A stretch of DNA of 62,463 nucleotides, counting the filler, from Stramenopiles sp. TOSAG23-3 (lineage: Eukaryota): assembly GCA_900128585.1 (NCBI GenBank). It is 13 parts of 13 records of this genome, joined end to end, with 100 filler letters (N's around TTAATTAATTAA, not from the genome) between each part and the next. Parts side by side here need not be neighbours in the genome. Positions count along the whole stretch, not along the records: positions 38,556 to 43,265 come from LT643730.1; 12 more parts are not named here. The stretch is one strand, 5' to 3'. Under the pieces are notes generated by a model. The model was not told the DNA's origin and made no database searches. It was given only the letters and a program-made list of their open reading frames with translations. This document shows positions 19,534 through 43,265 of the stretch, one piece after another (position 1 is the first letter of the stretch; each line of letters begins with the position of its first letter). The translations under genes were made by a program, and so were the position numbers.

Positions 19534-22500
19534 ATGGAAAACCCCGAGGGCCAGTATTACAAAGTGGTGCTGCAGCATCGTGGGCAGCAGAAAACAGTGC
19601 TTGTGTATGGAAACATGCCTCGCAACGAGCTGTACGACAACGTATGCGCTGCGTTCAACCTAGATCACTTGGATTTGGCAGGGATCCGAAGCGAGACGGG
19701 AGTGAGCTTTCCCCTGTCGCTGGTGGCCAAAGCCCCGTCCTACTTTACGAACGGTGTCTTCACCGTCGTTGGGACCTCCACGGAAGAGTCGGCCCCGAGC
19801 GCCCCCGCGGCTGCCCCCGCCATCCCAGTTCCCCCGCAGGCTGCGAACACGGTGGAGGTGCCCGTGGAAGAAGACGCGGCAGAAGACGACGTGGAAATGG
19901 AGGAACCCTTTACGTTGGCCGACACGAGCATCAGGGCGATCTTCGCCGCGGTTGAAGGTAAGGTAAGCGATGACGGTCGCGTCTCACGCAAGGCCTTCAC
20001 GGAAGTCTTTGAAAACCTCGTCGGGGCAGAGTCCATCAGGCGGCAGACAAGCGCGGCGGAGTACCTCGGCACCCTGTTTGACGCCTTCGACACGACCGAG
20101 GAAGGGTCGGTGGACGCGGGAGAACTCCTCAGCGGAATGATCATGTTGGCCGCAGACGACCACGAAACGAAAATCCAATCCGCGTTCAATTTGTTTGACA
20201 CGAATGGCGATGGGTTCATTGCTTACGAAGAAATGCTGCGGTACCTTCGAGCCTTGTTCATAGTCATTGCAAGGCAGCGCCCAGAAGTCTTCGAAATCAA
20301 CAACGTCGGCCCCGTGGAGTTGGCCGATGCGACAGCAGAGCAATGCTTCCTGGAAGCCGACTTGAACCACGACGGCCGCCTTAGCTACGACGAGTTTAGA
20401 GAATGGTACATGCGGGAAACCCAAGGGAAAATGACCAACATTGTGGGCCAATCGCCCTCTTCGGCCGAGGCCGGGGCGCTTGTCCTTGACTTTACGTTGC
20501 AAGAACTGCAAGAAAAAAGTGGCCTTGGCCTCTTTCAACCCGATGACGTCGTGCAGCTGTTTGCGAAGAATGCATCAACCGAAGGAGGCATAGACATTGG
20601 CGGGTTTGCGCAAAGCATCAACACGACGATGACTATGAGGGGGGAAGACGTTTCGGTAGACGAGTACTCCGCGATCGTCCGAGCGCTGTTTGATATGTTT
20701 GACCAGGACCATAACGGTGTTGTCGATTTCGCGGAACTAACGGCGGGCTTGTCCGTTTTGTGCGCGGGCTCTCGCGCAGAAAAAATCAAGGCCGCGTTTG
20801 ACCTGTACGACCGAAACGGCGATGGCTACATCAGCTTAGAGGAACTTACTCGATACTTAGTAAGCGTGTTCCGCATGCTCTACGCAACATCCGAAGAAAC
20901 TCGGAGCCGCATGGCGGTTTCCCCAGAAGATCTTGCCAGGGTGACTGCGGAGCAGTGCTTTCTTGAGGCAGACCTGAACGCAGACTCCAAACTAAATTTA
21001 GAAGAATTTACCAAATGGTTCAATCGCTCCCCCGATAGTGTCGCGTCTGCGGAGGAAGATGGCGGGGAGGATGACGAGGGGGACGACGAGGACCAGGACG
21101 AAGAGCTCGAATGGCTCGATCTGAAGGAAGCCCGCCGCCTCTCCTGCCTGAAGAAAGACCACCCGGAAGACGTATTCGAAGACTTTGCCGTCGTTGCGGA
21201 CAACGACGGTATGATCGACCATCATAGTTTTTTGACTGCCTGGTTTCAGATTGTCAACCGGAACGGGGGCTTTGAATCGGAGAGCGAGTACGAGCGTGCA
21301 GAAACGCTTTTTAATCGTCTGTTCAAAGCCTTCGATTCGAACGGCGATGGGTTTGTTGATTTCAGTGAGCTGAGCGCAGGGCTGACCGTCCTCTCTGGGG
21401 GATCACATGAGGACAAAGTGAAAGCAGCGTTTGACCTGTTCGACTATAACGACGACGGGTATATATCGTTGCCAGAGATGATAACCTACCTCACTTCCGT
21501 GTTCAAAGTCCTGTACCAAGCGCAGCCTGGTACTGCGGACTCTGCCGGGGTCAGTGCAGAGGAGCTTGCGCAGGCTACTGCGGTCCAAGCCTTTGAGGAC
21601 GCGGACTTGAACCATGACGGTCGCCTGAGTTTTTCCGAGTTTCAAATATGGTACTTGAAAAACAACGCCCCGGCAGCAGGCGCTGCCTCCAACGAAACCG
21701 TTTCTCAAAAGAACGAAATGACTTTGTCCGAAGCAAAGCGGCTGACTTGCCTTGACCAATTTGATGTCCACGACGTATTCGCTGAATTTGCGATTGCTGC
21801 AGATGAAGAAGGCCTTTTGAGCCGGGCGTCTTTCACGGATTGCTTTAAAAATATTATTCACTCAACCAGAGAATTGAACAACCAAGAAGAGGCTGCCTCT
21901 TTCAGCGTCATCGATAGATTATTCGACCTCTTTGATTCTGATGGCAATGGCGTCGTTGATTTCAGCGAGCTTGCGAGCGGTTTGTCTGTCCTTTGCGGTG
22001 GAAGCCGTGACCAAATGGGCGTGTCTGCGGAGGACCTTGCAACTGTCACGGCAGAGCAGGCGTTTGAAGATGCCGATTTGAATCACGACGGTCGTTTGTC
22101 GTTCGCCGAATTCCAAAAATGGTACGGCCAAGCCCCAGCCGGCCAAGACGTTCAGGACGTAGTCGAGAGTATCCCAGATTGGGTAAGCCTGAAGGAAGTG
22201 CGCCGCTTAACGTCATTGGAACAGTTTGACGTAGAAGACGTGTTCGAAGAGTTTGCCGTAAAGGCAAATGATGACGGTGTCCTTGACCGAGAGTCATTCG
22301 ACTCGTGTTTCGCTACTTTATTGGAGCAGGTGGGTGGGCATGAAGATGACGATGAAGACCCCCAACGCTTTGACGTCGTTTTGGGCCGATTGTTCGACAT
22401 CTTTGATTCTGATGGCAATGGCGTCGTTGATTTCAGCGAGCTTGCGAGCGGTTTGTCTGTCCTTTGCGGTGGAAGCCGGCAGCCAGGGACGGCCGACCAA

Positions 22501-23832
22501 ATGGGCGTGTCCGCGGAGGACCTTGCAACTGTCACGGCAGAGCAGGCTTTTGAAGATGCCGATTTGAATCACGACGGTCGTTTGTCGTTCGCCGAATTCC
22601 AAAAATGGTACGGCCAAGCCCCGGGAGCTTCGGGGCAAGATGATGGCTCCGAAGATGATCTGTCTGATGAGTTTATGAACCTTCCTGATATTCGAGCGCG
22701 CAGTGGTTTAGACGTTCAAAATGCCCAGGATGTGTTTGCAGTCTTTTCCGCAAAATCATCTGCCCAGGGCCTTGATTTACCAACATTTAAGAACTGTATG
22801 GCCACTTACGCTGACACCAGTGATGATTATTTCCACATCTTGTGCGAAAGAATATTTACGCTCTTTGACGCTGATCACAACGGTTTCGTAGACTTTGCGG
22901 AGCTGGCGAGCGGCCTCACTGTCCTCTGCGGTGGTACGGACCAAGACAAAGTTCGCGCAGCGTTCAAGCTTTATGATGTCAATGGGGACGGGTACATTTC
23001 AATGGACGAAATGACACAGTATCTACACTCGGTATTTAGAGTGATGTACTCCACCCACGAAGGCATGGAAGAATCCATTGGTGCCTCGTCTGCGCAATTA
23101 GCAGCTGCCACCGCACAAGAAGCATTTGCAAATGCTGATTTAAACCATGACGGTCGACTCTCTTTCGAGGAGTTCAAGAGGTGGTACGACTCCTCGAATT
23201 CTTCAGGGGAGAAGAATGTGGGAGATGCTGTTGAATCAAAGGAAGTGAGTGACGCACTTGTGGAGACTCCTCTTAGTTTAGATCGTGTCAAAAACTTAAC
23301 AAAGCTCGCCGCCTTCGATGCAAACGAAGTTTACGAAATATTTAGTGAAATGTCCCCTTCCGGTGGTCTTACCGAAGCAATGTTCACACGATGTTTCAAT
23401 CGCATTATTACACTTGGTGGTGGTCATGAAAATGAGGCAGATGCCAGAGATGCCAAGAAAGTAGTAGCTAGTCTTTTTAAAGTTTTCGATTCGAATGGCA
23501 ATGGGTCTGTTGACTCTCGCGAATTAGCTAGTGGCATAAGCGTACTCTGCGCAGGGCAGCGAGACGAAAAAATCAGAGCTGCTTTCAGTTTGTTTGACTT
23601 GAATGATGATGGCTTTATTTCACTCGGTGAAATGACCACTTACCTCACCTCTGTGTTCAAAGTCCTGTATGAATCGAACAACGGGACCAAAAAGGCGATT
23701 GGTGTTAGTGCTGACGAATTGGGGAAAATAACTGCAGAAGAGGCGTTCGTGGAATGCGATTTGAACCACGATGGTAGGTTATCGTTCGACGAATTTAAGA
23801 AATGGTACACAAACAGTGGGACGATGTTGTAA
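19534..23832 (+). CDS. Large multi-EF-hand protein with 7 tandem recoverin/NCS/calcineurin-B-like modules
   Basis: Repeated LFD.FD.D.NG.VDF.EL..GL.VL.GG / K..AAF.L.D.NGDGYIS / ADLNHDGRLSF.EF..WY blocks; 1432 aa. Confidence 0.93.
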   Translation: MENPEGQYYKVVLQHRGQQKTVLVYGNMPRNELYDNVCAAFNLDHLDLAGIRSETGVSFPLSLVAKAPSYFTNGVFTVVGTSTEESAPSAPAAAPAIPVPPQAANTVEVPVEEDAAEDDVEMEEPFTLADTSIRAIFAAVEGKVSDDGRVSRKAFTEVFENLVGAESIRRQTSAAEYLGTLFDAFDTTEEGSVDAGELLSGMIMLAADDHETKIQSAFNLFDTNGDGFIAYEEMLRYLRALFIVIARQRPEVFEINNVGPVELADATAEQCFLEADLNHDGRLSYDEFREWYMRETQGKMTNIVGQSPSSAEAGALVLDFTLQELQEKSGLGLFQPDDVVQLFAKNASTEGGIDIGGFAQSINTTMTMRGEDVSVDEYSAIVRALFDMFDQDHNGVVDFAELTAGLSVLCAGSRAEKIKAAFDLYDRNGDGYISLEELTRYLVSVFRMLYATSEETRSRMAVSPEDLARVTAEQCFLEADLNADSKLNLEEFTKWFNRSPDSVASAEEDGGEDDEGDDEDQDEELEWLDLKEARRLSCLKKDHPEDVFEDFAVVADNDGMIDHHSFLTAWFQIVNRNGGFESESEYERAETLFNRLFKAFDSNGDGFVDFSELSAGLTVLSGGSHEDKVKAAFDLFDYNDDGYISLPEMITYLTSVFKVLYQAQPGTADSAGVSAEELAQATAVQAFEDADLNHDGRLSFSEFQIWYLKNNAPAAGAASNETVSQKNEMTLSEAKRLTCLDQFDVHDVFAEFAIAADEEGLLSRASFTDCFKNIIHSTRELNNQEEAASFSVIDRLFDLFDSDGNGVVDFSELASGLSVLCGGSRDQMGVSAEDLATVTAEQAFEDADLNHDGRLSFAEFQKWYGQAPAGQDVQDVVESIPDWVSLKEVRRLTSLEQFDVEDVFEEFAVKANDDGVLDRESFDSCFATLLEQVGGHEDDDEDPQRFDVVLGRLFDIFDSDGNGVVDFSELASGLSVLCGGSRQPGTADQMGVSAEDLATVTAEQAFEDADLNHDGRLSFAEFQKWYGQAPGASGQDDGSEDDLSDEFMNLPDIRARSGLDVQNAQDVFAVFSAKSSAQGLDLPTFKNCMATYADTSDDYFHILCERIFTLFDADHNGFVDFAELASGLTVLCGGTDQDKVRAAFKLYDVNGDGYISMDEMTQYLHSVFRVMYSTHEGMEESIGASSAQLAAATAQEAFANADLNHDGRLSFEEFKRWYDSSNSSGEKNVGDAVESKEVSDALVETPLSLDRVKNLTKLAAFDANEVYEIFSEMSPSGGLTEAMFTRCFNRIITLGGGHENEADARDAKKVVASLFKVFDSNGNGSVDSRELASGISVLCAGQRDEKIRAAFSLFDLNDDGFISLGEMTTYLTSVFKVLYESNNGTKKAIGVSADELGKITAEEAFVECDLNHDGRLSFDEFKKWYTNSGTML
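21929..22622 (+). repeat. Near-identical intragenic duplication of about 200 bp (about 21929-22136 and 22400-22622)
   Basis: tctttgattctgatggcaatggcgtcgttgatttcagcgagcttgcgagcgg...tggtacggccaagcccc occurs twice, in EF modules 4 and 5. Confidence 0.9.
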
Positions 23833-24613: not shown

Positions 24614-27600
24614 TTACGGGCCCATATGATCAATAACCATCGAAGAGACGATCAATAGTGCCACAATGACACCTACCGCCATCAATGCCCGATTGGCAGT
24701 AGCAGGCGGGCACTTGGCACATTGCATTCCCCCGCCGTCCAGCCTACGGTACCCGACAGCACATGTGGCACACAAGCGGCACCGCTCGTCCTCGCGACGG
24801 GTGCAGACGGAGGCGTAACCAATTGCAGTGTTGCAGGACTCGTTGCGTGGCATGATTGCGACGTCCTCCCCTTCTGCACCCGCATACTTTCCTTTGAACG
24901 CAAAGTTCCGGGCCCCGAGGCAGGCGGGAGGGTAGCTGCATTGTGTAAAGTTGCTCGCTGCGTCCTCGAGCCAAATATTGTTCCGCCACCAGCCAAACAA
25001 AGGCTTCACGTCCTCCCATGTCGTCTCCACACCTTCGCACCAGGCTCCAGTTGGGCAGCTATCGCATCGCCAGTCGGCAAATGGCCCGGAAGTATTCAAG
25101 TACTGCTGCGTCATGTCGCACTGCTTTGCAATTTGCCAGGCGTTCGACACGGCCGACCAGGGGCTCGGGGTGGGCCCAACCACCCGCACGCGCACGTATA
25201 AAACGTCCAACGTGAGCGGTCGGGTGACGTTCAAGCTTACCGAGAAGGACGACGTAATAGTAGAGTTTGTACCTGGGTCAAAGGCGTCGTTGATTTGGCT
25301 CCACTGGACTTCGAATGCCTGTGTGGCCAACAGAGTGTCTGAATGCGTCCATTCTACCCTGGTCGCGAACAATGAATTGGCCACGCGGACCAGCGCGGGC
25401 TTCCCCGGCGGGGGTGGAACAATCGGGTCTTCCAACACGTTCAACGGAAAGTCGATCGTCTTGGAATATGACGCGTCGGTGCTTCGACATACGATCCGAG
25501 CGACCATCCCCTGGTATCCCGAGTAGTCCCCTTTCTCGATCCGAATAGAAAACGAAAGGTTCTGTGATCGAACGGCCCTCCAGTCGGTAAGCGATTCATA
25601 CATACGACTACTTGGGCTTACCGATACCAGCCCGGCGGGAACTCCTTGCAGCACTAGGGTCATGTTGACCGGGGCTCGTGGGCGGGTGCGGAAGCGAACG
25701 ACATTGATGGTCACCCCTTCCCCTTCCTGCACACTCAGCGTGCCCGCCAACGGGGCAAATGCAATGCCGGCAACATCTTCCAGATGGTCGGTGACTTGGA
25801 CAATTGCCGTAGCGTTCGTCGCTGTACTTTGGAACACGGCGTCCTTTGTCTTTATGAAATAATGAATGCGCACGCTCTCAATCTCAATATCATTATCGAT
25901 GTAGTCTCGGGCAGAGGAAATGGTGACCGATTGAGGCTTGGACCAGTCGTCGTTGAATTTCTGCGCATTGTGAAACATGCTATCCATACGGGTGACTTTC
26001 GATGTATTCCATGCCGACAGGTCGCCGTTGAATTTCTGCGCATTGTAAAACATCCACTTCATATCGGTGACTTTCGAGGTATCCCACGCCGACAGATCAC
26101 CGTTGAATTTAAGCGTACTGCTAAACATGTATCCCATAAGGGTGACTTTCGAGGTATTCCATGCCGACAGGTTGCCGTTGAATTTAAGCGCATTCTGAAA
26201 CATGCTCCACATAGAAAAGAGTTTCGAGGTATCCCATGCCGACAGGTCGCCGTTAAAGTTCTTCGCATAGTTAAACATGCCAGCCATATTGGTGACTTTC
26301 GAAGTATCCCATGCTGACAGATCGCCATTGAATTCCGGCGCTTTGTAAAACATGCTATACATATAAGTGACTTTCGAGGTATCCCATGCCGACAGATCAC
26401 CGTTGAATTTAAGCGTACTGCTAAACATGTATCCCATATTGGTGACTTTCGAGGTATTCCATGCCGACAGGTTGCCGTTGAATTTAAGCGCACCAAAAAA
26501 CATGTCATGCATATCAGTGACTTTCGAGGTATCCCATGCCGACAAGTCACCGTTGAATTCTAGCGCATTGTAAAACATGTGATTCATATCGGTGACTTTC
26601 GAGGTATCCCATGCCGACAGGTTGCCGTTGAATTCCTGAGTACCGTAAAACATGTGATTCATACGGTTGACGTTCGAGGTATCCCACGCCGACAGGTTGC
26701 CGTTGAATTCCTGCGCATCGTAAAACATCCAATCCATACGGGTAACTTTCGATGTATCCCATGCCGACAGTTTGCCGTTGAATTTATGCGCATTGGAAAA
26801 CATGCTGTGCATACGGGTGACTTTCGAGGTGTTCCATGCCGACAGGTCGCCGTTGAATTTCTGCGCTTCGTTAAACATGCCATGCATATAAGTGACTTTC
26901 GAGGTATCCCATGCCGACAGGTCGCCGTTGAATTCCTTCGCACTGATAAACATGTTACTCATATGGGTGACTTTCGAGGTATTCCATGCCGACAGGTCGC
27001 CGTTGAATTTCTGCGCATAGTGAAACATAAGTGACATAGAAGTGACTTTCGAGGTATCCCATGCCGACAGGTCGCCGTTGAATTTAAACGCATTGTAAAA
27101 CATTATCTGCATATCGTTGACTTTCGAGGTATCCCATGCCGACAGGTCGCCGTTGAAATTCTGCGCATCGTAAAACATCTGATTCATATGGGTGACTTTC
27201 GAGGTATCCCATGCCGACACGTTCCCGTTGAACTTTTCCGCGCCTTGAAACAACTCTTTCATGTCTGTAACTTGAGAAGTGTCCCATTCTGACAGAGGGA
27301 CCCCACAGAAGGCGCACGTCGCACCAGTATCGTCCGACTGCAAACAGGCATCAATGGCAGTTTTCAGGGCCGCCCTATCGTAGAAAGTGCAGTCGCATGC
27401 GCTCTGCGGCGGTGGCAAGGGGCTCGTACTATCAACAACTAGCTTTTTAGCCGGAGAAGGGCAAGCTATGGAAGTGTCGTAGTCGCAGAGCACCCCCAGC
27501 AAAGGATCAGTTCTTGCCGAGCATGATCCCAAAAAGGGTGAAACAGAGCAAGGGGAGGAGGTGCAGGTGGTTGGGGTTGGGAAATAGTCTGCGCCGTGTG

Positions 27601-28636
27601 GTCCCGAATGCCAGCTACCGGAATACAAAAACCCATAAAAAGGCCACGATCTCTCTATTCCAGAAAAATTAGTGTTGACCAGTGTAATGGAGGGAGTACC
27701 TTCTGTGCTAGATTTCAACGTCATTATCTCGTGCCCATGTTTCGCCGCTCCACTAGTATATTCCGTTGCTTCGTTTCGTACAAAGGTGCACTCTCTAATG
27801 TTTGCATACACTTTGAAGGTTAGATGAAGCCCACCACCACCCCTATAACCAGTTGTCCCCCCACTCGTTTGTTTATTTTCAGTCAGAGTACTTCTTGTCA
27901 AATTGATGTAAATTGATGACCGTCCAACCATATATATGGCACCTCCTTCGAATCTTGCTGTGTTCCTTCCGAAGAATGAATTTGTACTCGAAACAACCGA
28001 GCCTCTTTCAATGAGCATTGCGCCACCAAGTTGTCCTGCTGTGTTGTTCGTAAGTATATTGAAGTTACCAACGAAATTTGCATGGTATAAATATACCGCC
28101 CCCCCTCCTCTATCAGTGCCATCCTCCCAACCTGCGTGGTTCGAATGAAACAGTACAGTATCGAATGATAAAGTCGGGTCGTGATTCTTAGCATAAATAG
28201 CACCGCCGTCACAGGCACGGTTGTTGAAAAAGACACAATGTGATACGTACACATAAGCAGTGGTATCAAAAACAAGAATTGAACCGCCATTGCCGCTGCT
28301 CTGAGTGACATCTCCACCTGTCATGTTCAACCACTTCAATCTCAGCGTGTGCGCCCCACCGTCTATCTTAAAATGCCGACTCCCACTCGCTGCCGTGAGT
28401 GTAGAGTACACCGTCTCTTTCCCCGTCACCGTCAAGTCCCCGGAAACGGCAACTTCATCGGTCATCGTACAGTCCGTGCTTCGATTAAAGGTTCCGTTTG
28501 TCGCGGCGCAATCCCACTCATCTCCCAAGACAGGGTAGACTGCTAAAAAAGACAGCGCAATGTAACCAACCAATACAAAACGAAACCACCGGATGCGTGA
28601 GAAGAAGGCCTTCCGCCACGGCCATCCCCACCACAT
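24614..28636 (-). CDS. Surface protein: signal peptide, POMP-like beta-helix repeats, DUF285/BspA-like repeats, FN3-like and Cys-rich regions, TM helix
   Basis: GGAIY / F..N motifs; 18 x 25-aa LSAWDTSKVTxMxxMFxxAxxFNGD; PPGKP..W..W..YVRVR..SPWS; C..CP.GA.C; C-terminal hydrophobic helix. Confidence 0.88.
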   Translation of the reverse strand: MWWGWPWRKAFFSRIRWFRFVLVGYIALSFLAVYPVLGDEWDCAATNGTFNRSTDCTMTDEVAVSGDLTVTGKETVYSTLTAASGSRHFKIDGGAHTLRLKWLNMTGGDVTQSSGNGGSILVFDTTAYVYVSHCVFFNNRACDGGAIYAKNHDPTLSFDTVLFHSNHAGWEDGTDRGGGAVYLYHANFVGNFNILTNNTAGQLGGAMLIERGSVVSSTNSFFGRNTARFEGGAIYMVGRSSIYINLTRSTLTENKQTSGGTTGYRGGGGLHLTFKVYANIRECTFVRNEATEYTSGAAKHGHEIMTLKSSTEGTPSITLVNTNFSGIERSWPFYGFLYSGSWHSGPHGADYFPTPTTCTSSPCSVSPFLGSCSARTDPLLGVLCDYDTSIACPSPAKKLVVDSTSPLPPPQSACDCTFYDRAALKTAIDACLQSDDTGATCAFCGVPLSEWDTSQVTDMKELFQGAEKFNGNVSAWDTSKVTHMNQMFYDAQNFNGDLSAWDTSKVNDMQIMFYNAFKFNGDLSAWDTSKVTSMSLMFHYAQKFNGDLSAWNTSKVTHMSNMFISAKEFNGDLSAWDTSKVTYMHGMFNEAQKFNGDLSAWNTSKVTRMHSMFSNAHKFNGKLSAWDTSKVTRMDWMFYDAQEFNGNLSAWDTSNVNRMNHMFYGTQEFNGNLSAWDTSKVTDMNHMFYNALEFNGDLSAWDTSKVTDMHDMFFGALKFNGNLSAWNTSKVTNMGYMFSSTLKFNGDLSAWDTSKVTYMYSMFYKAPEFNGDLSAWDTSKVTNMAGMFNYAKNFNGDLSAWDTSKLFSMWSMFQNALKFNGNLSAWNTSKVTLMGYMFSSTLKFNGDLSAWDTSKVTDMKWMFYNAQKFNGDLSAWNTSKVTRMDSMFHNAQKFNDDWSKPQSVTISSARDYIDNDIEIESVRIHYFIKTKDAVFQSTATNATAIVQVTDHLEDVAGIAFAPLAGTLSVQEGEGVTINVVRFRTRPRAPVNMTLVLQGVPAGLVSVSPSSRMYESLTDWRAVRSQNLSFSIRIEKGDYSGYQGMVARIVCRSTDASYSKTIDFPLNVLEDPIVPPPPGKPALVRVANSLFATRVEWTHSDTLLATQAFEVQWSQINDAFDPGTNSTITSSFSVSLNVTRPLTLDVLYVRVRVVGPTPSPWSAVSNAWQIAKQCDMTQQYLNTSGPFADWRCDSCPTGAWCEGVETTWEDVKPLFGWWRNNIWLEDAASNFTQCSYPPACLGARNFAFKGKYAGAEGEDVAIMPRNESCNTAIGYASVCTRREDERCRLCATCAVGYRRLDGGGMQCAKCPPATANRALMAVGVIVALLIVSSMVIDHMGP
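25946..27295 (-). repeat. Coding tandem array, 18 x 75 bp (DUF285/PARCEL-type)
   Basis: Plus-strand scaffold gtgactttcgaggtatcccatgccgacaggtcgccgttgaatt recurs at exactly 75-bp period, separated by about 30 variable bases. Confidence 0.95.
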
Positions 28637-36435: not shown

Positions 36436-38418
36436 TCACTGTCGTTTTTTTGAGCTAGCGCGGGACTTTCGCTGGCGCACTGTCGTGCGTTTATGGCTGG
36501 CACTCGCTGCGATGGCCTTGTGATCGGTATCATTAAATCGTTTTTGACCTACAAAAAAATAGTAGGGCGATTTAATGCACATCGGGACGTACGGAAACCC
36601 TCCTGCTCGAACGGAGCAGGTCTTTTCATCAAACATCTGCTGTAACGCAGGGATATGCTCCTCGTTGGGGTGCACGTTGTCGTTGGCGAATACCGTTTTC
36701 CAAAACTGTCGGGTCATGTAGTAGTGGTCATTCGTAACAGTAAAATCGGCGACACATATATGACCCCCTGGTTTCAAGCACCGGTACGCGTTCTCTAAGG
36801 CTGCTTTCCAGTCCGGAATCATTGTTAACGAATAAGAAAATGAGACGACGTCGACGGATTCCGACTCGATCAATGTCTGGTCGGTGGCATCGCCGACGAC
36901 CAACTCCACGTTTCCCCAGCCATTAGTTTCAACTCTTTGTTTTGCAACTTCGATCAGTGGCCGACAAAGGTCAAGCACAATAACTTTTTGAAACAAGTCT
37001 ATGCTCTCTTTTAAATCTTCCAGATTCGCTGCCGTGCCCCCTCCTAAATCCAACCACGTCCCCCCGACTGGCGTTGGCATGTTTTCCAACATTGGCTTTC
37101 GGCCGTGAAGGAAACGGTGACGAAAGGCATCGTAGGACTGCGCTTGTCCCCGGTAAAACGACTCCAACTTTTCTTGGTGCGAGCTGCCAGATATGGGGTG
37201 AAGAAAATTAGCAAACAGGACTCTTGCATCGTCGCAAACGGTTGCCTTGGGGCGGAAGGGCGTCCGCTTCACAATATTGAAACCTTCGTCCAGGGACGGA
37301 ATGCGCGCGTAATGGCACGAGTTGTACATCGCAACGCGATCCGGCAACGCGGCCTCGACCTCTGCGACCCCTTGGTGAAAGTCGAGGAATTTCAACGGAC
37401 CAATGTGCTGTTTGGGAGAAAACGACCTCCAAAGCACGTGGGCCTTGCCACGCTGGCACTTCTTGGCAAATATTTCCCACTCGTCCAGGATGGCCTCGGT
37501 GCTCAGCCAGTCCTGGTGGTCCAACAGGACGTACCGCGTGAAGTACTCGTCGGGAAACGAGGCACAGACATCCCGCAACGTTCCGGTCCGAATGGTAACC
37601 CGGTCGACGAACTTTCGAAGCGTGTCGAAGTGTTCCTCTTTCAGGTAGCGAGGGCAGCACTCTTTGGTAAAGTGTCCGTAGACGTAGCCGTAGTAGAAAT
37701 AGTTGTCCTGGGCAACGAAAGTGTGCTCCATAATGTGGTCCAACAGGTCCTTCACAATGTTGCCATCGTAGAGGCTGAGCTGGGAATCGGGAACGCCAAT
37801 AAAAGGTGCCCATATGCGGCGCGTGCTGTTAACGACATCGGCAAAGGTATGGAATCGTCCCTTGTATTGCTGGTACAGCTCCCGCTGCTCCGCCAAGCTT
37901 CTGCAGCCCTTCAACGCCTCCATCATGCCCCCCAGCCCCAACAGCCGCGCAATGCTACCGACTGACTGGCCAGCCCGACCCGACATTCCACGCCACAACG
38001 GCTGCTCGAAAAACGAGGGGCCCGAGGTATCAAAGTACTCCCGAAACTCCTCCTTCAAGTGTTTCCTTAACTTTGTCCGGTATACGCGCTTGAACAATGC
38101 AGAGTCGCCTTTGGCGAAGAGTGTAAAAAATTCTTCGTACTCCAACTCCTTTATCGCAGCAAGCTTTATGGCGAGCAACCCGTTCTGGCGAGGGTTCAAG
38201 TCCACCGCAACTATCTCCGCCGGGCCTTCCAGCAAGTAATCGAGAACGTTGCACCCTGCAGAAGTAAGCATCATCATCCTATCCTCCGGACCCAGTTTCA
38301 ACAGAGCACGGTCGATCCTGGGATCTTCCCACGATATGTTGTAAATTATTTTATTGCCGATCAAGTTAAACATGACTTTGTCTTGGAGCTGCCCAACATA
38401 CGATTCGGAACCCTGCAT
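36436..38418 (-). CDS. BTA1: Betaine lipid (DGTS) synthase, BtaA-BtaB fusion
   Basis: N-terminal BtaA/DUF3419 motifs (YNISWEDPRID, TSAGCNVLDY, VDLNPRQ, LLDHQDW, WRS). C-terminal BtaB methyltransferase (LESFY..QA..YD.FR..FLHGR, WLDLGGGT, FSYSLTMIPDW). Confidence 0.9.
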   Translation of the reverse strand: MQGSESYVGQLQDKVMFNLIGNKIIYNISWEDPRIDRALLKLGPEDRMMMLTSAGCNVLDYLLEGPAEIVAVDLNPRQNGLLAIKLAAIKELEYEEFFTLFAKGDSALFKRVYRTKLRKHLKEEFREYFDTSGPSFFEQPLWRGMSGRAGQSVGSIARLLGLGGMMEALKGCRSLAEQRELYQQYKGRFHTFADVVNSTRRIWAPFIGVPDSQLSLYDGNIVKDLLDHIMEHTFVAQDNYFYYGYVYGHFTKECCPRYLKEEHFDTLRKFVDRVTIRTGTLRDVCASFPDEYFTRYVLLDHQDWLSTEAILDEWEIFAKKCQRGKAHVLWRSFSPKQHIGPLKFLDFHQGVAEVEAALPDRVAMYNSCHYARIPSLDEGFNIVKRTPFRPKATVCDDARVLFANFLHPISGSSHQEKLESFYRGQAQSYDAFRHRFLHGRKPMLENMPTPVGGTWLDLGGGTAANLEDLKESIDLFQKVIVLDLCRPLIEVAKQRVETNGWGNVELVVGDATDQTLIESESVDVVSFSYSLTMIPDWKAALENAYRCLKPGGHICVADFTVTNDHYYMTRQFWKTVFANDNVHPNEEHIPALQQMFDEKTCSVRAGGFPYVPMCIKSPYYFFVGQKRFNDTDHKAIAASASHKRTTVRQRKSRASSKKRQ

Positions 38419-38555
38419 GGTGTGGTCTTAATCTTGAGGGGGGGGGGGGGGGGGGNNNNNNNNNNNNNNNNNNNNNNNNNNNNNNNNNNNNNNNNNNNNT
38501 TAATTAATTAANNNNNNNNNNNNNNNNNNNNNNNNNNNNNNNNNNNNNNNNNNNN

Positions 38556-41500
38556 CTGGATGGTCAGGTGGTAGGATACGTTTAGATAACGCCAACGTTT
38601 CCTTCTCCAATCGAAGCGCATCGTCATGACGTCCTAAAGCACTGTACGTACTTGAAAGGTATGTCAACGTATACCCCACTGCTTCATCACCTCTCTCCCT
38701 TCGCAGTAACGGAAACGTTTCTAAAATAAAATTACCGTGGCTTGCCCACTGTTGTCGAATACTGGTCTGCTTCCCCCACGATTTATATTTGTTTGTTTTG
38801 TTAAACCCTTTATTAACAATACGAACACCAATGCGCGCCAATGCTTCTCTCCTCTCCCCTGACATTGCATCCAACTGGACCTGTTGTACCAACCGATGGG
38901 TGGAAAACGTGCTCTTTCTGTTTTCATTCCACTCTATAAGAGAATATGTTGAAAGTTCACTCAGGAGTGCAGCTGTATTTCCCCCCTTAAAATCATTCTC
39001 AATGTCGAAACTATCTCTTTTCTCAAGTATTTCCGATGCCATTTCGACGATCTCTACCGGTTTGTCGTCTGGCGCAAAGCACGACGCGAGCTGAAGCAGT
39101 AACTTTGCGCTCGGAGACAGTATTTCCCTATTCATGTGCCATGTTGTTTTGACCGTTGTTGTTTCTTCCGCAAAATCAAACGATTGAAGCTTTTCTTTTT
39201 CCCGCATAAATCGGCGTTGCTCTGGTAGCTTCATAAACGCTTTGACATCGCCCGCTTCTACTTCCAACATGTCTCTCAGAGATTCAAATCCCAAATCGTT
39301 CAAGTCTGCAACGTGATTCTGGAGTCCTTGCGTTTCTAACCATTTAAAAAGCCTTCCTTTATCCTTTGATTCACGCATCTCCGTGCCATCAAACAGTTCC
39401 GTGCGTTTCTGTAGATATGCCGTCTTGAACTCCGCCCACGACATCCCCCTCTCCCGCACAAAAGAACCGGCCTGACGAAGTGCCAACGGGAGCCCGGCCA
39501 ACCCATCCGGTCCTGCTAGCCACTTTAGGGCATTGGCATTTTCTCCCTCTTGTTTCTCTACGTCTTCGTCGTGCCCTGCAACACGCAACAGTAGCGTCTC
39601 TGCTGTTCCTTGTGGCAGTGTTGAGATACTAACAATGTCCTTCTTCACATCAAACCCAAGCATTGCAAATTCATTTGAGTCTTGCTTCGCTCGCGTTGTC
39701 AACAAAACGTGCCCTAGGGCGTGCTTGTCCGGAAGGAGAGACTTCAGCAAGCCAAGGTCGTCTGCATTGTCGTAGATGATCAACCAATTCCGATGATCTT
39801 GAAACCATTTCAGAACAAACCCAATGATTTCCTTGATCGTTGTATCTTTCCCAAGCCCCTCCATCTTCAAATCAACGCTTGCAATAACCCGAAAGCTGGC
39901 TCCAATAGAATCTATCGTGTCCGTGGATACCCAGAATACGCCCCCTGAATATTCTTCACGGTAGATACGCGCGTACTGCTTCACAATCGCAGTCTTACCA
40001 ATGCCCCCAAGGCCACGCAAAACATTCATATCCTGACATATTGCCTTGCTCGCACTTTCCGTATTCATGCGATCGTGCAACGATTGTAGGAGCTCTTCGT
40101 TGCCGGTGAAGAATGGATCGTTCGATTCAATTTCCCTCGGCCAAGGCGGACTTTCGTTCCTACGCTCTGAGAGATGCTCCATTTCTAATTTTTTGATTCG
40201 GGATTGGCTTTCGAACGACTTCGGGGCGAGAAACAGGGCCATGAATAGGAACAGAAATGCCAATAGTATGCTGTATTTGTTGAGAGTTCCTCTGTTTTCT
40301 ACAACTCCGGCCGTGTTCCTTTGAACTTGCACCTCCAGCTCCCCCAGACTAGACGCTAGCTCTTGGATCGCTTTCGTCTGCAACGAATTGAAAGCATTTT
40401 GCTGCACCACCAACTTGCCATCGGACAGCCCCTTCGCATTGATTTCTTTCAGCGACTTTGGGATTTCCCCGGTCTTTGCATAGACCACCACTCCCGGAAT
40501 ATGCTCCGTAAACAGCTCAAAAAGGTGCTGGGCCATGGGGCCGGCGTCTGGCGTGCCGTCTTTCCACCTGTAGGTGTACTGCTGTAGTTTTCGGAGCGCT
40601 GGCAGTACCCCATCGGGCACCGGTTTCTTGTTCTCCTTGAGACGTTCGTCGGAGTATGCACGTAAATGTTGTGTGATAAGGGTATTGCACTTGATGATAT
40701 TGTCCACATGCAAATTGTCCCACGGATAGTCGATGATTGAAACGGGGGTAGAATCGGTGGGAGTTCCTACCGTCAATTGGTTAAGATGTGCAGGGTGGCT
40801 CGAAGAACCGCCCCCATGTCTACTGAGATTGCCTGCCTCGGCATTTTCGGGATGGCTAGGTAGAGTCTCTGCGGTATTGCTTCTGGTCACTGGCCTTTCG
40901 CTTCCAGCTTCTTCTTGGCGATCCGGTGAAACGACTGCGGGAAGTCGCGCAGTTTGCCATTTAGCCAAGACTTCAATATAACTTGCAGTTTCCCCAGAAT
41001 CGTTTAACTTTATGTTGGTTCGCTCATATTTATTTTCGCCCTTATGGCGGTACAACACGTACTTCCCACTGATATTTGGAATGGGTTGAAATTTCACCGT
41101 GTACGGCCGTCTTCGACTCGTTATTTTTCGAACACGGATGAGATATTCGTGTCTCTTTCTCTTCTTGTTTTTCGGGTTCTTGTTTTTCGGGTACTTACCT
41201 AGATGATTTTCATCCTGCCATTCCCATTCCTTTGACTCAAGATTTAGTTCTATTTCGTCTTTAAGATTTTCTTTGTTTTCGTGATGGTCAACGAGCAAAT
41301 AATTGGCAGGGACTTCTGTAGACCAGCGTCCTTCGAAGTTTTTGTAGATTTCAACTTGGGTTTTTTCCCCTTTGTTCCCCGCATTGGGTACAAGTAAGGC
41401 GCCACCTTTGACTCTTGGTTGGAAGTAGTCTTTCAGGTCTTTGAGGTCTTTCTTTCGGTCTTTCAACGAGAGCTTGACCGTAGGTACCAAAATGGCGGAA

Positions 41501-41634
41501 CATCTCGCGGCACCTCTTGCCAATTCATCATCTCCTTCAAGTTCATCATCAACGATTGCAGTAAGCTCACTCAGGGGAACGTCAAGCGGACCCCCAGCAA
41601 ACCATTCCGCAAGATCCATATTTTGCTGGTTCAT
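38556..41634 (-). CDS. NLR-like STAND protein: basic N-terminal domain, peptidase S74 (ICA) domain, TM helix, NB-ARC with SAM-like insert, TPR; 3'-partial
   Basis: YSDERLKEN..L..YTYRWK..G.MAQ (S74); SILLAFLFLFMALFLAP; FTGNEELL, GLGGIGKT, WLIIYDNADD, LLTTR, GLPLAL, HRLVQ (NB-ARC); LSSTYSALGRHDDALRL..LPPDHP (KLC-type TPR). Confidence 0.88.
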
Positions 41635-42281
41635 ACTTCCTATACTTAAGTTCCGTGTCACAGCTTTTTTAAAAAAAGGACAAGAAGAAGATAGTGCAGC
41701 TCTATACAGCTCTTCATCGCTTCTTCTTTATTCAGATACTTAAGATTATTGTGTCGTGGACGACGGCTTATCTTTTGTTGCTTAAACCTTTAGTTGAAAA
41801 TAAGAATAATATACGCGCTATTATTATTTTCTTCATCACTCACCACCCCCACGCACGTAACGCAGCTATCATCTCTTGGTATAAAAAAAAAGAAAAGTAA
41901 AAAAAATCGCCGCAGCATCAGGCAGTAAGTAGCACACGCAACAATTATCAAATTATTTGCTTATGGTGATAGAATTCGCGTTGTATTGTAGTATTGATAC
42001 AACATGGTATTACAATAATAGTCTAATAAGCTATTACACATTACCCGATCCCTTCCCCCCTACAGCAATGTAGTATTAATACGGGAGTACAACACTTACT
42101 AGACTACTCGTAGTGTAAGATGTTTTAATAGGATTATTACAAAAAACTCGTCTAGGCACTATTGTATTACGTTATTACACAGTCTAATGTGGGTTTTTGT
42201 TACTTGTCCTTTGATCTGTGAGCCAATAATTCATAACATTTTTACCGATTAAGGCTTTGAAATAATATTTATATACCATTG

Positions 42282-42310
42282 GCGGTCGGTAAGCGGTCGG
42301 TGAGCGGTCG
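42282..42310. promoter_or_regulatory. Triple GCGGTCGGT(A/G)A direct repeat in a divergent promoter region (candidate only)
   Basis: gcggtcggtaa gcggtcggtga gcggtcg in AT-rich DNA between divergent starts at 41634 and 42665. Confidence 0.3.
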
Positions 42311-42664
42311 ATCAGGACAAAGGACATTATCATATAATTAGAATAATGTACTACTACATATTTGTACGGAAATTTTTAACAGTGAGATAGCATTACGTTT
42401 GATTTTGATCAAACTGAATCGAATGACTAATAAATACAGGTAAATAACAAAGAACATCCATCTACTCTTCTTCTTTTTTTTCTTCTTTTCTTCTTTTTCT
42501 TTCATCATAATACAACACACACACAACGAACTACAAAACACCATCCTCCTCCTCCTCCTCCACCACTTCTTCTTCTCCGACAACGGGGTTTCAAAAAAGA
42601 AAAAATATCAACAGTGTAAAAAATATAATATCAACACAAAACAAAACAAGTATATCAAAAAAGA

Positions 42665-43265
42665 ATGAAATTTAAAATAATTTTGTTGATATTCATCGTT
42701 GCGGTTTCATGCGGCGACGTCGCGCATGGCGTTGACTGCCAAGGACCGGAATGTGCAGCCCGAGAGACAAACCGATCGGCATCGTACGCTGAAGGTACGT
42801 GGGCGGCTGATGGGAAAACTTGGACTGGACCAAAAGGCACGGGCGGTGTGGCCTCTGGTCAAAGTGCACCCGCTGCAACGGAAGACGAGGAATCACTCCT
42901 CGGACGTCTGTCGCAAAAACTGTGGCAACCCATTTCGCAAATGGCATGGGAACCCAAGAAACCCATAGGTCGCATGCTGTGGGAAACCAAGAACGTCTGT
43001 GCGGTCGAGGAAAGGTTCAGAGCCGCCCGCGACGATACTTTTGACCCGACGACCGTGGACTCTGCCGCGTGGATTGACACGGAGGGTCAGCTTAACTTCG
43101 CCTACAAGGCGAATACGGCCATTTCGTCGGTGTCCTTCGGGGATTCCTGCCCTCACAACTACGACGCCAAAGCGGAAAACACCGCATGGACGATCATACA
43201 GGGGGACGGCACGGAGGACCAGCAGGTTCGGTACAAAAAGGACTACCACACGTTCGTGGAAGACT
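42665..43265 (+). CDS. Secreted hypothetical protein, 3'-partial
   Basis: Signal peptide MKFKIILLIFIVAVSCG; open to the linker. Confidence 0.75.

What the first reader, a model, noticed from the sequence alone, without database searches (positions are those of the whole stretch)
38556..41634. MYRF-like self-cleaving front end fused to an NB-ARC/TPR NLR: candidate one-component sensor and released effector
Seen: one uninterrupted ORF with the order basic N-terminal domain, low-complexity linker, YSDERLK (Ser codon 40651-40653, Lys codon 40636-40638), coiled coil, 17-aa hydrophobic helix, complete NB-ARC motifs, then TPR. Established: peptidase S74 / intramolecular chaperone domains of phage tailspikes and of MYRF trimerise and self-cleave through a Ser-Lys dyad with this S-D-x-R-x-K spacing; in MYRF this frees an N-terminal transcription factor from a membrane anchor. 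NB-ARC-TPR proteins are ligand-triggered oligomerising immune switches. Inference: NLR oligomerisation could drive S74 trimerisation and cleavage, releasing the roughly 325-aa N-terminal fragment. I do not know a described NLR with this effector module.
Basis: partly seen in the sequence, partly recalled or inferred. Interest (0 to 1): 0.88.

Follow-up and report, generated by a model that had tools for sequence, protein, structure and literature searches.

The report
Phage-type self-cleaving module on protist NLR-like ATPase
A marine protist gene joins a phage tail-fibre self-cutting domain, carrying an unknown basic front part, to an immune-type ATP switch, an arrangement that I found in no paper and that may signal by cutting off its own front end.

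Summary
On the minus strand, 41634 to 38557, there is one open frame of 1026 codons. Its order is: orphan basic domain, low-complexity linker, Peptidase_S74 with Ser328/Lys333, coiled coil, 18-residue hydrophobic helix, NB-ARC, SAM-like insert, winged helix (DUF7779), first TPR.

Two caveats. The window is a chain of about 4.7-kb contigs joined by N/stop linkers, so only 38556-43265 is true context. The gene is cut at its 3' end by the contig end.

The fusion is not a chimera:
- A EukProt protein is 77% identical straight through S74 into NB-ARC.
- A contig from an independent seawater metagenome covers 40032-40311 without a difference.

The same S74 module sits on NACHT-like and helicase-like ATPases in relatives. 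The same NB-ARC subfamily carries FYVE or HEPN fronts. S74 therefore fills the effector slot of a shuffling STAND family.

A homotrimer model passes (0.95 against 0.01 for the best control). The hydrophobic helix is a 29-residue insert absent from the closest relative.

It is not a MYRF family member: no Ndt80 or MRF_C domains. Coupling of cleavage to the ATPase state is inference. No paper joining S74 with a STAND ATPase was found.

The parts
38557..41634 (-). Open reading frame, 1026 codons from the first ATG. It is open at the 3' end because the contig ends there.
40930..41499 (-). Orphan basic, strand-rich N-terminal domain (residues 46-235; 40 K+R against 25 D+E). No family or fold assigned.
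   Evidence: Composition. No Pfam hit at E up to 10. No Atlas lead. AlphaFold2 pLDDT 34-38. Homologous to the N-terminus of P0006, E 6e-06 over residues 36-212.
41149..41172 (-). Basic cluster KNKKRKRH (residues 155-162), which looks like a nuclear localisation signal.
   Evidence: Similar clusters lie upstream of the dyad in 4 of 5 distinct relatives that carry 140 or more residues upstream. Reading it as an NLS is recalled knowledge, not tested.
40735..40929 (-). Low-complexity S/T/P/G-rich linker (residues 236-300).
   Evidence: 30 of 65 residues
40321..40725 (-). S74 intramolecular chaperone / self-cleavage module with its upstream stalk (residues 304-438).
   Evidence: Pfam PF13884 at 328-378. 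Ten PHROG tail-fibre families match within 291-448; the five longest, full-ICD matches end within 14 positions of the profiles' C-termini. PDB profile: phi29 gp12 and T5 fibre. The trimer interface includes 304-339.
40651..40653 (-). Ser328 codon, the predicted nucleophile. The predicted cut is between Tyr327 and Ser328.
   Evidence: The cut-off phi29 gp12 chaperone chain 3gud starts at the aligned Ser. Equivalence to MyRF S587 rests on the i/i+5 spacing described in PMC8326128.
40636..40638 (-). Lys333 codon, the predicted general base of the Ser-Lys dyad.
40276..40386 (-). Coiled coil after the S74 fold (about residues 417-453).
   Evidence: Helix in the single-sequence model with pLDDT 71-84 over its last 20 residues. 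Interface contacts at 3-4 spacing in the trimer model.
40201..40287 (-). About 29-residue insert relative to P0015 (within residues 442-478). It holds the hydrophobic helix 454-471 (40222-40275).
   Evidence: an identical metagenome contig spans it (X4 record 29)
39397..40200 (-). Start of the NOD module (residue 479) and the NB-ARC ATPase (Pfam 538-746) with P-loop, Walker B, TTR and GLPL motifs.
39199..39363 (-). SAM-like insert between NB-ARC and the winged helix (residues 758-812).
   Evidence: It aligns to the SAM_TNK domain (549-602) of P0050. On its own it scores only E 0.12 against SAM_KSR1.
38851..39126 (-). DUF7779 winged-helix domain (residues 837-928) with the FSTHRLVQQ motif.
38557..38709 (-). 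First TPR unit(s) (residues 976-1026), cut by the contig end.
   Evidence: (TPR_10, TPR_12)
38456..38555 (.). Artificial linker (N44, a stop in six frames, N44) that joins two unrelated contigs.

Best explanation
This is a real gene of an intron-poor marine eukaryote. It encodes a STAND (NLR-like) ATPase of the NB-ARC / winged-helix / TPR type. The N-terminal slot, where relatives carry TIR, HEPN, FYVE or HTH domains, holds a phage-tail-fibre-type S74 module. That module consists of a stalk, a Ser328/Lys333 dyad and a trimeric coiled coil. In front of it lie an orphan basic domain with an NLS-like cluster and a disordered linker.

Proposed mechanism. The S74 module can cut only when three copies fold together. 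When it does, the chain breaks between Tyr327 and Ser328. The 327-residue front part leaves as a trimer, probably for the nucleus. The ATPase-TPR part, membrane-anchored in this copy, stays behind. I propose that ligand binding at the TPR and ATP-dependent oligomerisation of the NB-ARC supply the proximity that lets S74 trimerise. Sensing and effector release would then lie in one polypeptide.

What is shown: the domain identities, the conserved dyad, the reality of the fusion, the two-way shuffling of modules, and a trimer model that passes its controls.

What is inferred: that cleavage occurs, that it depends on the NOD state, and what the released part does.
For: Domains: (S74 39.8 bits, NB-ARC 29.4, DUF7779 44, TPR_10 33.8, all above cut-off). 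FxSxx_TPR at 160.9 bits over residues 507-932.

S74 identity: (phi29 gp12 E 5.6e-05, T5 fibre E 6.9e-05); 10 of 10 PHROG hits are virion structural proteins, 7 of them tail fibres. All lie within 291-448; the five longest, full-ICD matches end within 14 positions of the profiles' C-termini.

Dyad: S-D-E-R-x-K is kept in 9 of 10 stored family sequences that cover the site, and one has Cys. This is 6 of 6 in alignment A2.

Trimer dependence of cleavage in this fold: passages of PMC8326128.

Trimer model of residues 286-457: score 0.95 in 3 runs against a best control of 0.01. The runs agree in at least 90% of contacts and pLDDT is 86. The tool's calibration: 21 of 30 proteins solved as pairs of one chain reached the mark, and 0 of 23 solved as single chains.

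The fusion is real: P0015 is identical at 342 of 444 residues across S74 into NB-ARC. X4 record 29 covers 40032-40311 with no differences.

Module shuffling: the S74 front sits on a helicase-like P-loop (P0002), on NACHT-like ATPases (P0003, P0007) and on NB-ARC (this gene, P0015). The same NB-ARC subfamily carries FYVE (P0049) or HEPN_Swt1 (P0050), and bacterial relatives carry TIR or HTH.

Basic clusters lie upstream of the dyad in 4 of 5 distinct relatives with 140 or more residues upstream.

Near-identical contigs occur in oligo-dT RNA libraries over the NB-ARC/SAM/WH part (X12 records 3-6 with 1-4 differences; X16 record 11 with 1).
Against: No evidence bears on cleavage itself or on its coupling to the ATPase.

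In phage fibres and in mammalian MYRF the cut follows folding and trimerisation with no outside trigger (established knowledge; passages). The default expectation is therefore constitutive cleavage.

The hydrophobic helix (454-471) has no signal peptide before it. It would most simply put the 453 N-terminal residues in the cytosol and the NB-ARC-TPR in a lumen or outside the cell, where no STAND ATPase is known to work.

One relative has Cys in place of the Ser (P0015).

The N-terminal domain has no assigned fold (pLDDT 34-38), so 'nuclear effector' rests on a basic cluster alone. P0003's front part is not detectably related (E 2).

The trimer pass may come from the model's memory of solved S74 trimers, and the calibration was made on pairs, not trimers.

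The RNA evidence is contigs only and does not cover the join. In the S74 part the RNA contigs are 6 of 77 and 9 of 196 letters different, and one runs on into a paralogue.
Confidence: 0.5

Rival explanations
1. Constitutive processing, as in MYRF and phage fibres. S74 trimerises as the protein folds and cuts at once, whatever the ATPase does. The gene then yields two products. One is a trimeric front fragment. The other is an S74/coiled-coil-trimerised (here membrane-anchored) NB-ARC-TPR protein. Any regulation lies in transcription, trafficking or a later non-covalent hold.
For: Established behaviour of this fold: the cut needs only the trimer (passages of PMC8326128; abstracts of PMC3742443 and PMC3742440 in the listing). 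The trimer of the isolated module is modelled with high confidence without any NOD. The strong coiled coil directly after the fold would drive trimerisation by itself.
Against: It gives no reason why the module is found only fused to P-loop switches of three different classes. All 5 family members long enough to show what lies downstream (this gene, P0002, P0003, P0007, P0015) carry one. In C. elegans the MYRF cut is regulated by a partner and by location (abstract of PMC8099431, listing), so the fold can be held back.
Confidence: 0.27
2. S74 serves here without cutting. Either it acts as a trimerising adaptor, or as a bait that co-assembles with the S74 domains of viral fibre proteins, so that infection by a virus with such fibres is sensed at the N-terminus.
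For: S74 C-termini are described as ubiquitous in fibre proteins of polinton-like viruses of most protist groups (passages of PMC12220804). The module is nearer to viral fibres than to MYRF. One relative has Cys for Ser.
Against: The Ser, Arg and Lys of the cleavage centre are kept in 9 of 10 stored sequences that cover the site, which a mere adaptor would not require. A TPR sensor already sits at the usual C-terminal place. The front cargo with its basic cluster is conserved upstream.
Confidence: 0.1
3. The gene belongs to an integrated virus or other mobile element (polinton-like or giant virus) and is not a host immune gene. The front part would be a structural fibre that the S74 chaperone folds.
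For: The S74 domain's usual home is virion fibres. The contig is short, so its wider context is unknown. The family is rare: 9 hits among 1.84 billion representatives.
Against: No relative in viral contigs. No virus hallmark on the contig; the only neighbour is a secreted-type orphan protein. In fibres S74 is the extreme C-terminus, whereas here 590 or more residues of STAND ATPase follow it. The front part is short, basic and linked by a disordered stretch, unlike a fibre shaft.
Confidence: 0.08
4. Assembly chimera or dead gene.
For: The assembly is fragmentary, with contigs of about 4.7 kb chained by linkers. P0015 shows an odd partial duplication of the S74 C-half at its start.
Against: The frame is open for 1026 codons. 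The join is reproduced at 77% identity in P0015 and letter for letter in an independent metagenome contig. All motifs are intact.
Confidence: 0.03

Closest known systems
MYRF / Dictyostelium MrfA (membrane-tethered transcription factors with an ICA domain)
   Same: An internal (not C-terminal) S74/ICA domain with the S-x-x-R-x-K centre, followed by a trimeric coiled coil and, in this copy, a membrane helix. A basic front part with an NLS-like cluster would be set free by the cut.
   Different: No Ndt80-type DNA-binding domain and no MRF_C1/C2. MYRF matches the S74 profile only at E 0.16, against 5.6e-05 for phage proteins, and no MYRF appeared among the 9 hits at E up to 0.001. The part behind the helix is an NB-ARC-TPR ATPase. 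The helix is missing in the closest relative.
Phage tail-fibre and tailspike C-terminal intramolecular chaperone domains (Peptidase_S74: K1F endosialidase, phi29 gp12, T5 pb1)
   Same: These are the closest sequence relatives of residues 304-438. They share the Ser-Lys centre and the trimer.
   Different: There the domain is the last part of the protein and is discarded after folding the fibre. Here it is internal, the upstream part is not a recognisable fibre, and a large ATPase follows.
Bacterial and eukaryotic NB-ARC-TPR STAND proteins (FxSxx-COOH-system TPR proteins, AfsR-type NB-ARC, fungal NB-ARC-TPR NLRs)
   Same: NB-ARC, DUF7779 winged helix and TPR_10/12 in the same order, with a swappable N-terminal slot.
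   Different: Below the NCBIfam equivalog cut-off (160.9 against 300 bits). It has a SAM-like insert shared only with marine relatives. The N-terminal slot holds S74, which none of the 120 listed relatives carries.
Apoptosome and inflammasome (proximity-induced protease activation by STAND oligomers)
   Same: In the proposed logic, oligomerisation of the NOD brings protease units together so that they become active.
   Different: In those systems a separate caspase is recruited through adaptor domains and cuts other proteins. Here the protease would be part of the sensor, would act once on its own chain, and would need a three-fold rather than a two-fold arrangement. This comparison is from recalled knowledge and was not tested.

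Membership tests
Peptidase_S74 / intramolecular chaperone auto-processing domain (PF13884) | Profile match above the curated cut-off | tested here: met
   39.8 bits against cut-off 22, E 5.7e-10, residues 328-378. Relatives P0002, P0003 and P0015 also pass.
Peptidase_S74 / intramolecular chaperone auto-processing domain (PF13884) | Ser nucleophile and Lys base five residues apart at the start of the domain | tested here: met
   S328 and K333. The Ser aligns to residue 1 of the cut-off phi29 gp12 chaperone 3gud. Kept in 9 of 10 stored family sequences, with one Cys. The role of the pair comes from passages of PMC8326128.
Peptidase_S74 / intramolecular chaperone auto-processing domain (PF13884) | Homotrimer with a C-terminal three-helix coiled coil | tested here: met
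   Model only: score 0.95 against a best control of 0.01, pLDDT 86, runs agree in at least 90% of contacts. The pass may come from likeness to solved S74 trimers.
Peptidase_S74 / intramolecular chaperone auto-processing domain (PF13884) | Actual self-cleavage before the Ser | not testable with these tools
   Needs protein expression with S328A and K333A controls.
MYRF family | Ndt80/PhoG-type DNA-binding domain in front of the ICA domain | tested here: not met
   No Pfam family at E up to 10 on residues 1-240 or at E up to 1 on the whole protein. The PDB profile of A3 finds only phi29 gp12 in that range. A distant structural likeness cannot be excluded because the models are poor.
MYRF family | MRF_C1/MRF_C2 region behind the membrane helix | tested here: not met
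   Not among the Pfam hits. NB-ARC, DUF7779 and TPR stand there instead. The Pfam names MRF_C1/C2 are recalled.
MYRF family | Membrane helix downstream of the ICA domain | tested here: inconclusive
   Present here (454-471, Kyte-Doolittle 2.23). It lies in a 29-residue insert absent from P0015 and from a variant in a seawater metagenome (X4 loose end at 40313).
STAND ATPase, NB-ARC (AP-ATPase) clade | NB-ARC profile with P-loop, Walker B, sensor-1 TTR and GLPL motifs | tested here: met
   29.4 bits against cut-off 23.5. AfsR NB-ARC is the best solved relative. Motif names are recalled.
STAND ATPase, NB-ARC (AP-ATPase) clade | Winged-helix domain with a His motif, then a C-terminal repeat sensor | tested here: met
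   DUF7779 at 44 bits. TPR_10 at 33.8 bits against cut-off 27.5. The TPR array is cut by the contig end.
FxSxx-COOH system TPR protein (NF040586) | Score above the equivalog cut-off | tested here: not met
   160.9 bits against cut-off 300: a related clade, not a member.
NLR in the strict sense (NACHT or NB-ARC with LRR) | Leucine-rich-repeat sensor | tested here: not met
   No LRR family; the repeats are TPR. 'NLR-like' is used in the wide sense applied to fungal and bacterial proteins.

The most novel reading that the evidence does not exclude
A lineage of marine protists has built a one-protein immune pathway. A STAND sensor, on oligomerising, forces a domesticated viral S74 domain to trimerise and cut the sensor's own chain. 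This sends a trimeric, nuclear-targeted factor straight from the site of detection to the genome. The same cleavable connector is reused on NB-ARC, NACHT and helicase-type sensors, sometimes with a membrane anchor. The capture of S74 would be independent of the one that gave MYRF.
Probability: 0.3. Interest if true: 0.9.

Novelty: new variant of a known kind. Interest (0 to 1): 0.76.

Why it matters
NLR-type switches are known to act through death folds, TIR, pore-forming or nuclease domains, or by recruiting caspases. A sensor that signals by cutting itself with a built-in, trimer-dependent protease would be a new output mode. It is directly testable with three point mutants.

It would also be a second, apparently independent domestication of the phage/virus S74 domain by eukaryotes, beside MYRF. 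Here the domain acts as a shuffled connector between variable cargo and variable ATPases.

Finally, it gives a first handle on innate-immunity-type genes of uncultured marine protists. In these organisms the same NB-ARC subfamily also carries HEPN and FYVE fronts.

Tried and rejected
Fold of the N-terminal domain:
- AlphaFold2 gave mean pLDDT 38.0 on the single sequence (residues 1-470) and 34.4 with a 10-row alignment (residues 1-330).
- Both models are too poor for a fold search, so none was run.
- Two ESM Atlas calls gave no usable hit.
- The PDB profile of A3 found only the S74 part.

Whole-protein scans show no family there.
- Whole genome: none is held.
- Supplementary files of papers are closed. 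Supplementary tables of NLR domain surveys could list an S74 architecture that I could not see.

Searches that added little or nothing:
- Rfam on the window: no match.
- First metagenome scan: 311 pattern matches, none a relative. The second gave one 1021-base contig, L001, that adds little.
- Viral contigs: none.
- GTDB genomes: only a weak helicase match in one MAG, L002.
- PADLOC: no family for this protein.

Intron reading of the hydrophobic helix: rejected. The DNA at 40201-40287 has ordinary codons and no plausible GT..AG pair that keeps the frame. A metagenome contig holds it unchanged.

SAM domain: Pfam on the segment alone gives only E 0.12. It is kept as 'SAM-like' only by alignment to P0050.

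Read laying:
- No single contig of X3, X4, X12 or X16 spans the whole gene.
- Parts without RNA cover (40606-42481 in X12) are not evidence of anything.
- Small-share runs were not used for habitat claims, beyond noting that the two laid DNA holders are labelled marine or seawater metagenomes.
Full report
WHAT THE WINDOW IS

The 62,463-base window is not one piece of chromosome. It holds 12 linkers of 44 N, TTAATTAATTAA and 44 N, spaced about 4.8 kb apart. It is therefore a chain of unplaced contigs of about 4.7 kb.

The finding lies on the contig 38556-43265. Genes on other contigs are no context for it. They do show that the organism is a eukaryote with long intron-free frames: ECM29, a GRIP golgin, SNF2, a cyclic-nucleotide-gated channel and a DUF3419-methyltransferase. 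No whole genome is held.

The only neighbour on the contig is a divergently placed orphan frame, 42665-43265 on the plus strand. It has a signal-peptide-like start, is cut by the other contig end, and has no Pfam family.

THE OBSERVATION

The minus strand is open from the first ATG at 41634 to 38557, where it runs into the linker. That is 1026 codons with no stop, so the C-terminus is missing.

Four Pfam families pass their curated cut-offs:
- Peptidase_S74 at residues 328-378, E 5.7e-10, 39.8 bits against 22.
- NB-ARC at 538-746, 29.4 bits against 23.5.
- DUF7779 at 837-928, 44 bits against 27.
- TPR_10 at 989-1026, 33.8 bits against 27.5.

The hydrophobic helix is at residues 454-471. It holds the highest Kyte-Doolittle 19-residue windows of the protein; the top eight start at residues 450-457 and the maximum is 2.23.

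The P-loop, Walker B, TTR, GLPL and His motifs are all present (the motif names are recalled).

THE S74 PART

The family profile (A2) finds the cut-off chaperone of phi29 gp12 (3gud, E 5.6e-05), with the profile's Ser aligned to its first residue. It also finds the T5 fibre pb1 (6f45, E 6.9e-05). MYRF (7dc3) scores only E 0.16.

Ten of ten PHROG hits are virion structural proteins, seven of them tail fibres. All lie within residues 291-448. The five longest, full-ICD matches end within 14 positions of the profiles' C-termini.

Passages of the MyRF ICA structure paper state three things (PMC8326128):
- S587 and K592 form the catalytic pair.
- Each Ala mutant abolishes the cut.
- Cleavage is activated only in the trimer, which the C-terminal coiled coil drives.

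Here the spacing is the same: S328, R331, K333.

A three-copy model of residues 286-457 scored 0.95, 0.94 and 0.95, against a best control of 0.01. pLDDT was 86 and the runs agreed in at least 90% of contacts. The interface ran through 304-339 and down the helix at a 3-4 spacing. The tool's calibration counts are 21 of 30 proteins solved as pairs of one chain and 0 of 23 solved as single chains. Because S74 trimers are solved, the pass may reflect likeness rather than independent evidence, and the calibration used pairs.

IS THE FUSION REAL?

Yes, on two independent grounds.

An exhaustive HMMER search with residues 1-470 over 1.84 billion representatives found only 9 proteins at E up to 0.001. 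A profile search for longer proteins added P0015, from EukProt. P0015 aligns without a break from the S74 stalk into the NB-ARC, with 342 of 444 residues identical. Its only sizeable gap, 29 residues in all, lies exactly at the hydrophobic insert.

In a seawater metagenome that is not the likely source, a 280-base contig covers 40032-40311 with no difference. This span runs from the coiled coil through the helix to the start of the NOD (X4 record 29).

In the same run another contig matches down to 40313 and then reads, by my hand translation, T-E-T-I-A-A-H-D-K-R. That is the insert-less P0015-type form. Both forms therefore exist in the sea.

RNA-library contigs lie on the NB-ARC, SAM-like and winged-helix parts with 1-4 differences (X12 records 3-6, X16 record 11). 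They show no joints inside the frame. This hints at expression without introns but does not prove it.

THE FAMILY PICTURE

The S74 module is the constant part.
- P0002 (886 residues) has a related front domain, then S74, then a ResIII/AAA_19 helicase-like P-loop.
- P0003 and P0007 carry S74 on NPHP3_N/NACHT-type ATPases.
- This gene and P0015 carry it on NB-ARC.

All 5 members long enough to show what follows S74 have a P-loop ATPase there.

The front cargo is shared with the P0002/P0006 group (E 6e-06 over residues 36-212). It is not detectably shared with P0003 (E 2).

The NB-ARC half has 650 relatives at E up to 1e-10.
- The nearest are marine or EukProt proteins with other fronts: FYVE in P0049 and DUF4559/HEPN_Swt1 in P0050.
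- The bulk are bacterial NB-ARC-TPR proteins whose precomputed domains include TIR, XRE-HTH and PNP_UDP.
- NCBIfam places residues 507-932 near FxSxx_TPR, below its cut-off.

The alignment with P0050 shows that the NOD module begins at residue 479. It also shows that P0050's SAM_TNK domain corresponds to residues 758-812 here.

The 29-residue insert with the helix therefore sits exactly at the seam between the two modules.

This two-way shuffling is the pattern expected of an effector or adaptor module in STAND immune-type proteins. That expectation is an inference from established knowledge of fungal and bacterial NLR-like families.

MECHANISM

The best-supported reading has four steps.
1. 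The S74 module trimerises.
2. It cuts between Tyr327 and Ser328.
3. It frees a trimeric 327-residue front part. This part carries a basic cluster, KNKKRKRH. Similar clusters occur upstream of the dyad in 4 of 5 distinct relatives with enough sequence.
4. The ATPase-TPR part remains, membrane-bound in this copy.

That NOD oligomerisation triggers the cut is attractive. It explains why S74 is always found on an oligomerising P-loop switch. It is nevertheless pure inference, and the default behaviour of this fold is constitutive cutting.

The helix raises a problem. With no signal peptide, an N-in orientation would place the NB-ARC outside the cytosol. The flanking charges (+2 before, +1 after, counted) do not settle this. 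Since the closest relative lacks the insert, I treat the anchor as an accessory.

COMPARISON AND NOVELTY

The protein works like MYRF in layout but fails MYRF membership: it has no Ndt80-type domain and no MRF_C.

It is a member of Peptidase_S74 and of the NB-ARC STAND clade.

No paper in the library joins S74, ICA or endosialidase terms with NB-ARC, NACHT, STAND or NLR terms:
- Searches returned none.
- One search returned one unrelated review.
- Searches showed none among the rows listed (20 of 4,695, 25 of 194 and 10 of 115).
- Two survey papers were checked by full-text look-up and have no such term.

Supplements were closed.

A cryptophyte virus paper describes S74 as ubiquitous in fibre proteins of polinton-like viruses of protists (passages). 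That is a plausible source for the domain.

VERDICT

This is a real and rare new architecture: a new variant of the NLR-like kind, with a testable and unusual proposed output. The architecture is near certain. Self-cleavage is likely. Coupling to the ATPase is open.

Noticed in passing
window 4733-57770 (12 linkers; list): The window is a pseudo-molecule. Contigs of about 4.7 kb, in order of falling length, are joined by N44-TTAATTAATTAA-N44. Gene neighbourhood across linkers is meaningless.
   Followed up: yes
window 39199-39363 (-): There is a SAM-like insert inside the NOD, between NB-ARC and the winged helix. It is shared with a marine relative that scores as SAM_TNK (P0050). A SAM inside a STAND core is unusual and could add a second oligomerisation surface.
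   Followed up: partly
P0015 residues 1-125 (EukProt relative): The gene model starts inside a first partial S74 C-half and coiled coil. A new stalk and a second S74 follow, and in the second the nucleophile is Cys instead of Ser. This is either tandem S74 modules or a model or assembly artefact.
   Followed up: no
window 42665-43265 (+): A divergently placed frame on the same contig has a signal-peptide-like start and no Pfam family. It is cut by the contig end.
   Followed up: partly
window 42459-42638: A simple purine-rich or GAA-like repeat in the intergenic region draws very high summed contig depth in the metagenomes (89 and 123) and many loose ends. It is probably a common low-complexity repeat.
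   Followed up: no
window 36436-38478 (-), previous contig: A DUF3419 plus methyltransferase protein, whose layout looks like betaine-lipid synthase (BTA1; the name is recalled). Its contig ends in a run of about 18 C just upstream of the ATG, which looks like a cloning or tailing artefact.
   Followed up: no
window 24614-28636 (-) and 19534-23832 (+): A 1340-residue protein is made of DUF285 repeats (E 4.5e-180). A 1432-residue protein is made almost wholly of EF-hands. Both are on other contigs.
   Followed up: no
L001 1-1021: A low-coverage metagenome contig puts a family member (S74 with only about 50 residues upstream) next to a bacterial-looking 4Fe-4S ferredoxin frame. It may be a chimeric contig.
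   Followed up: no
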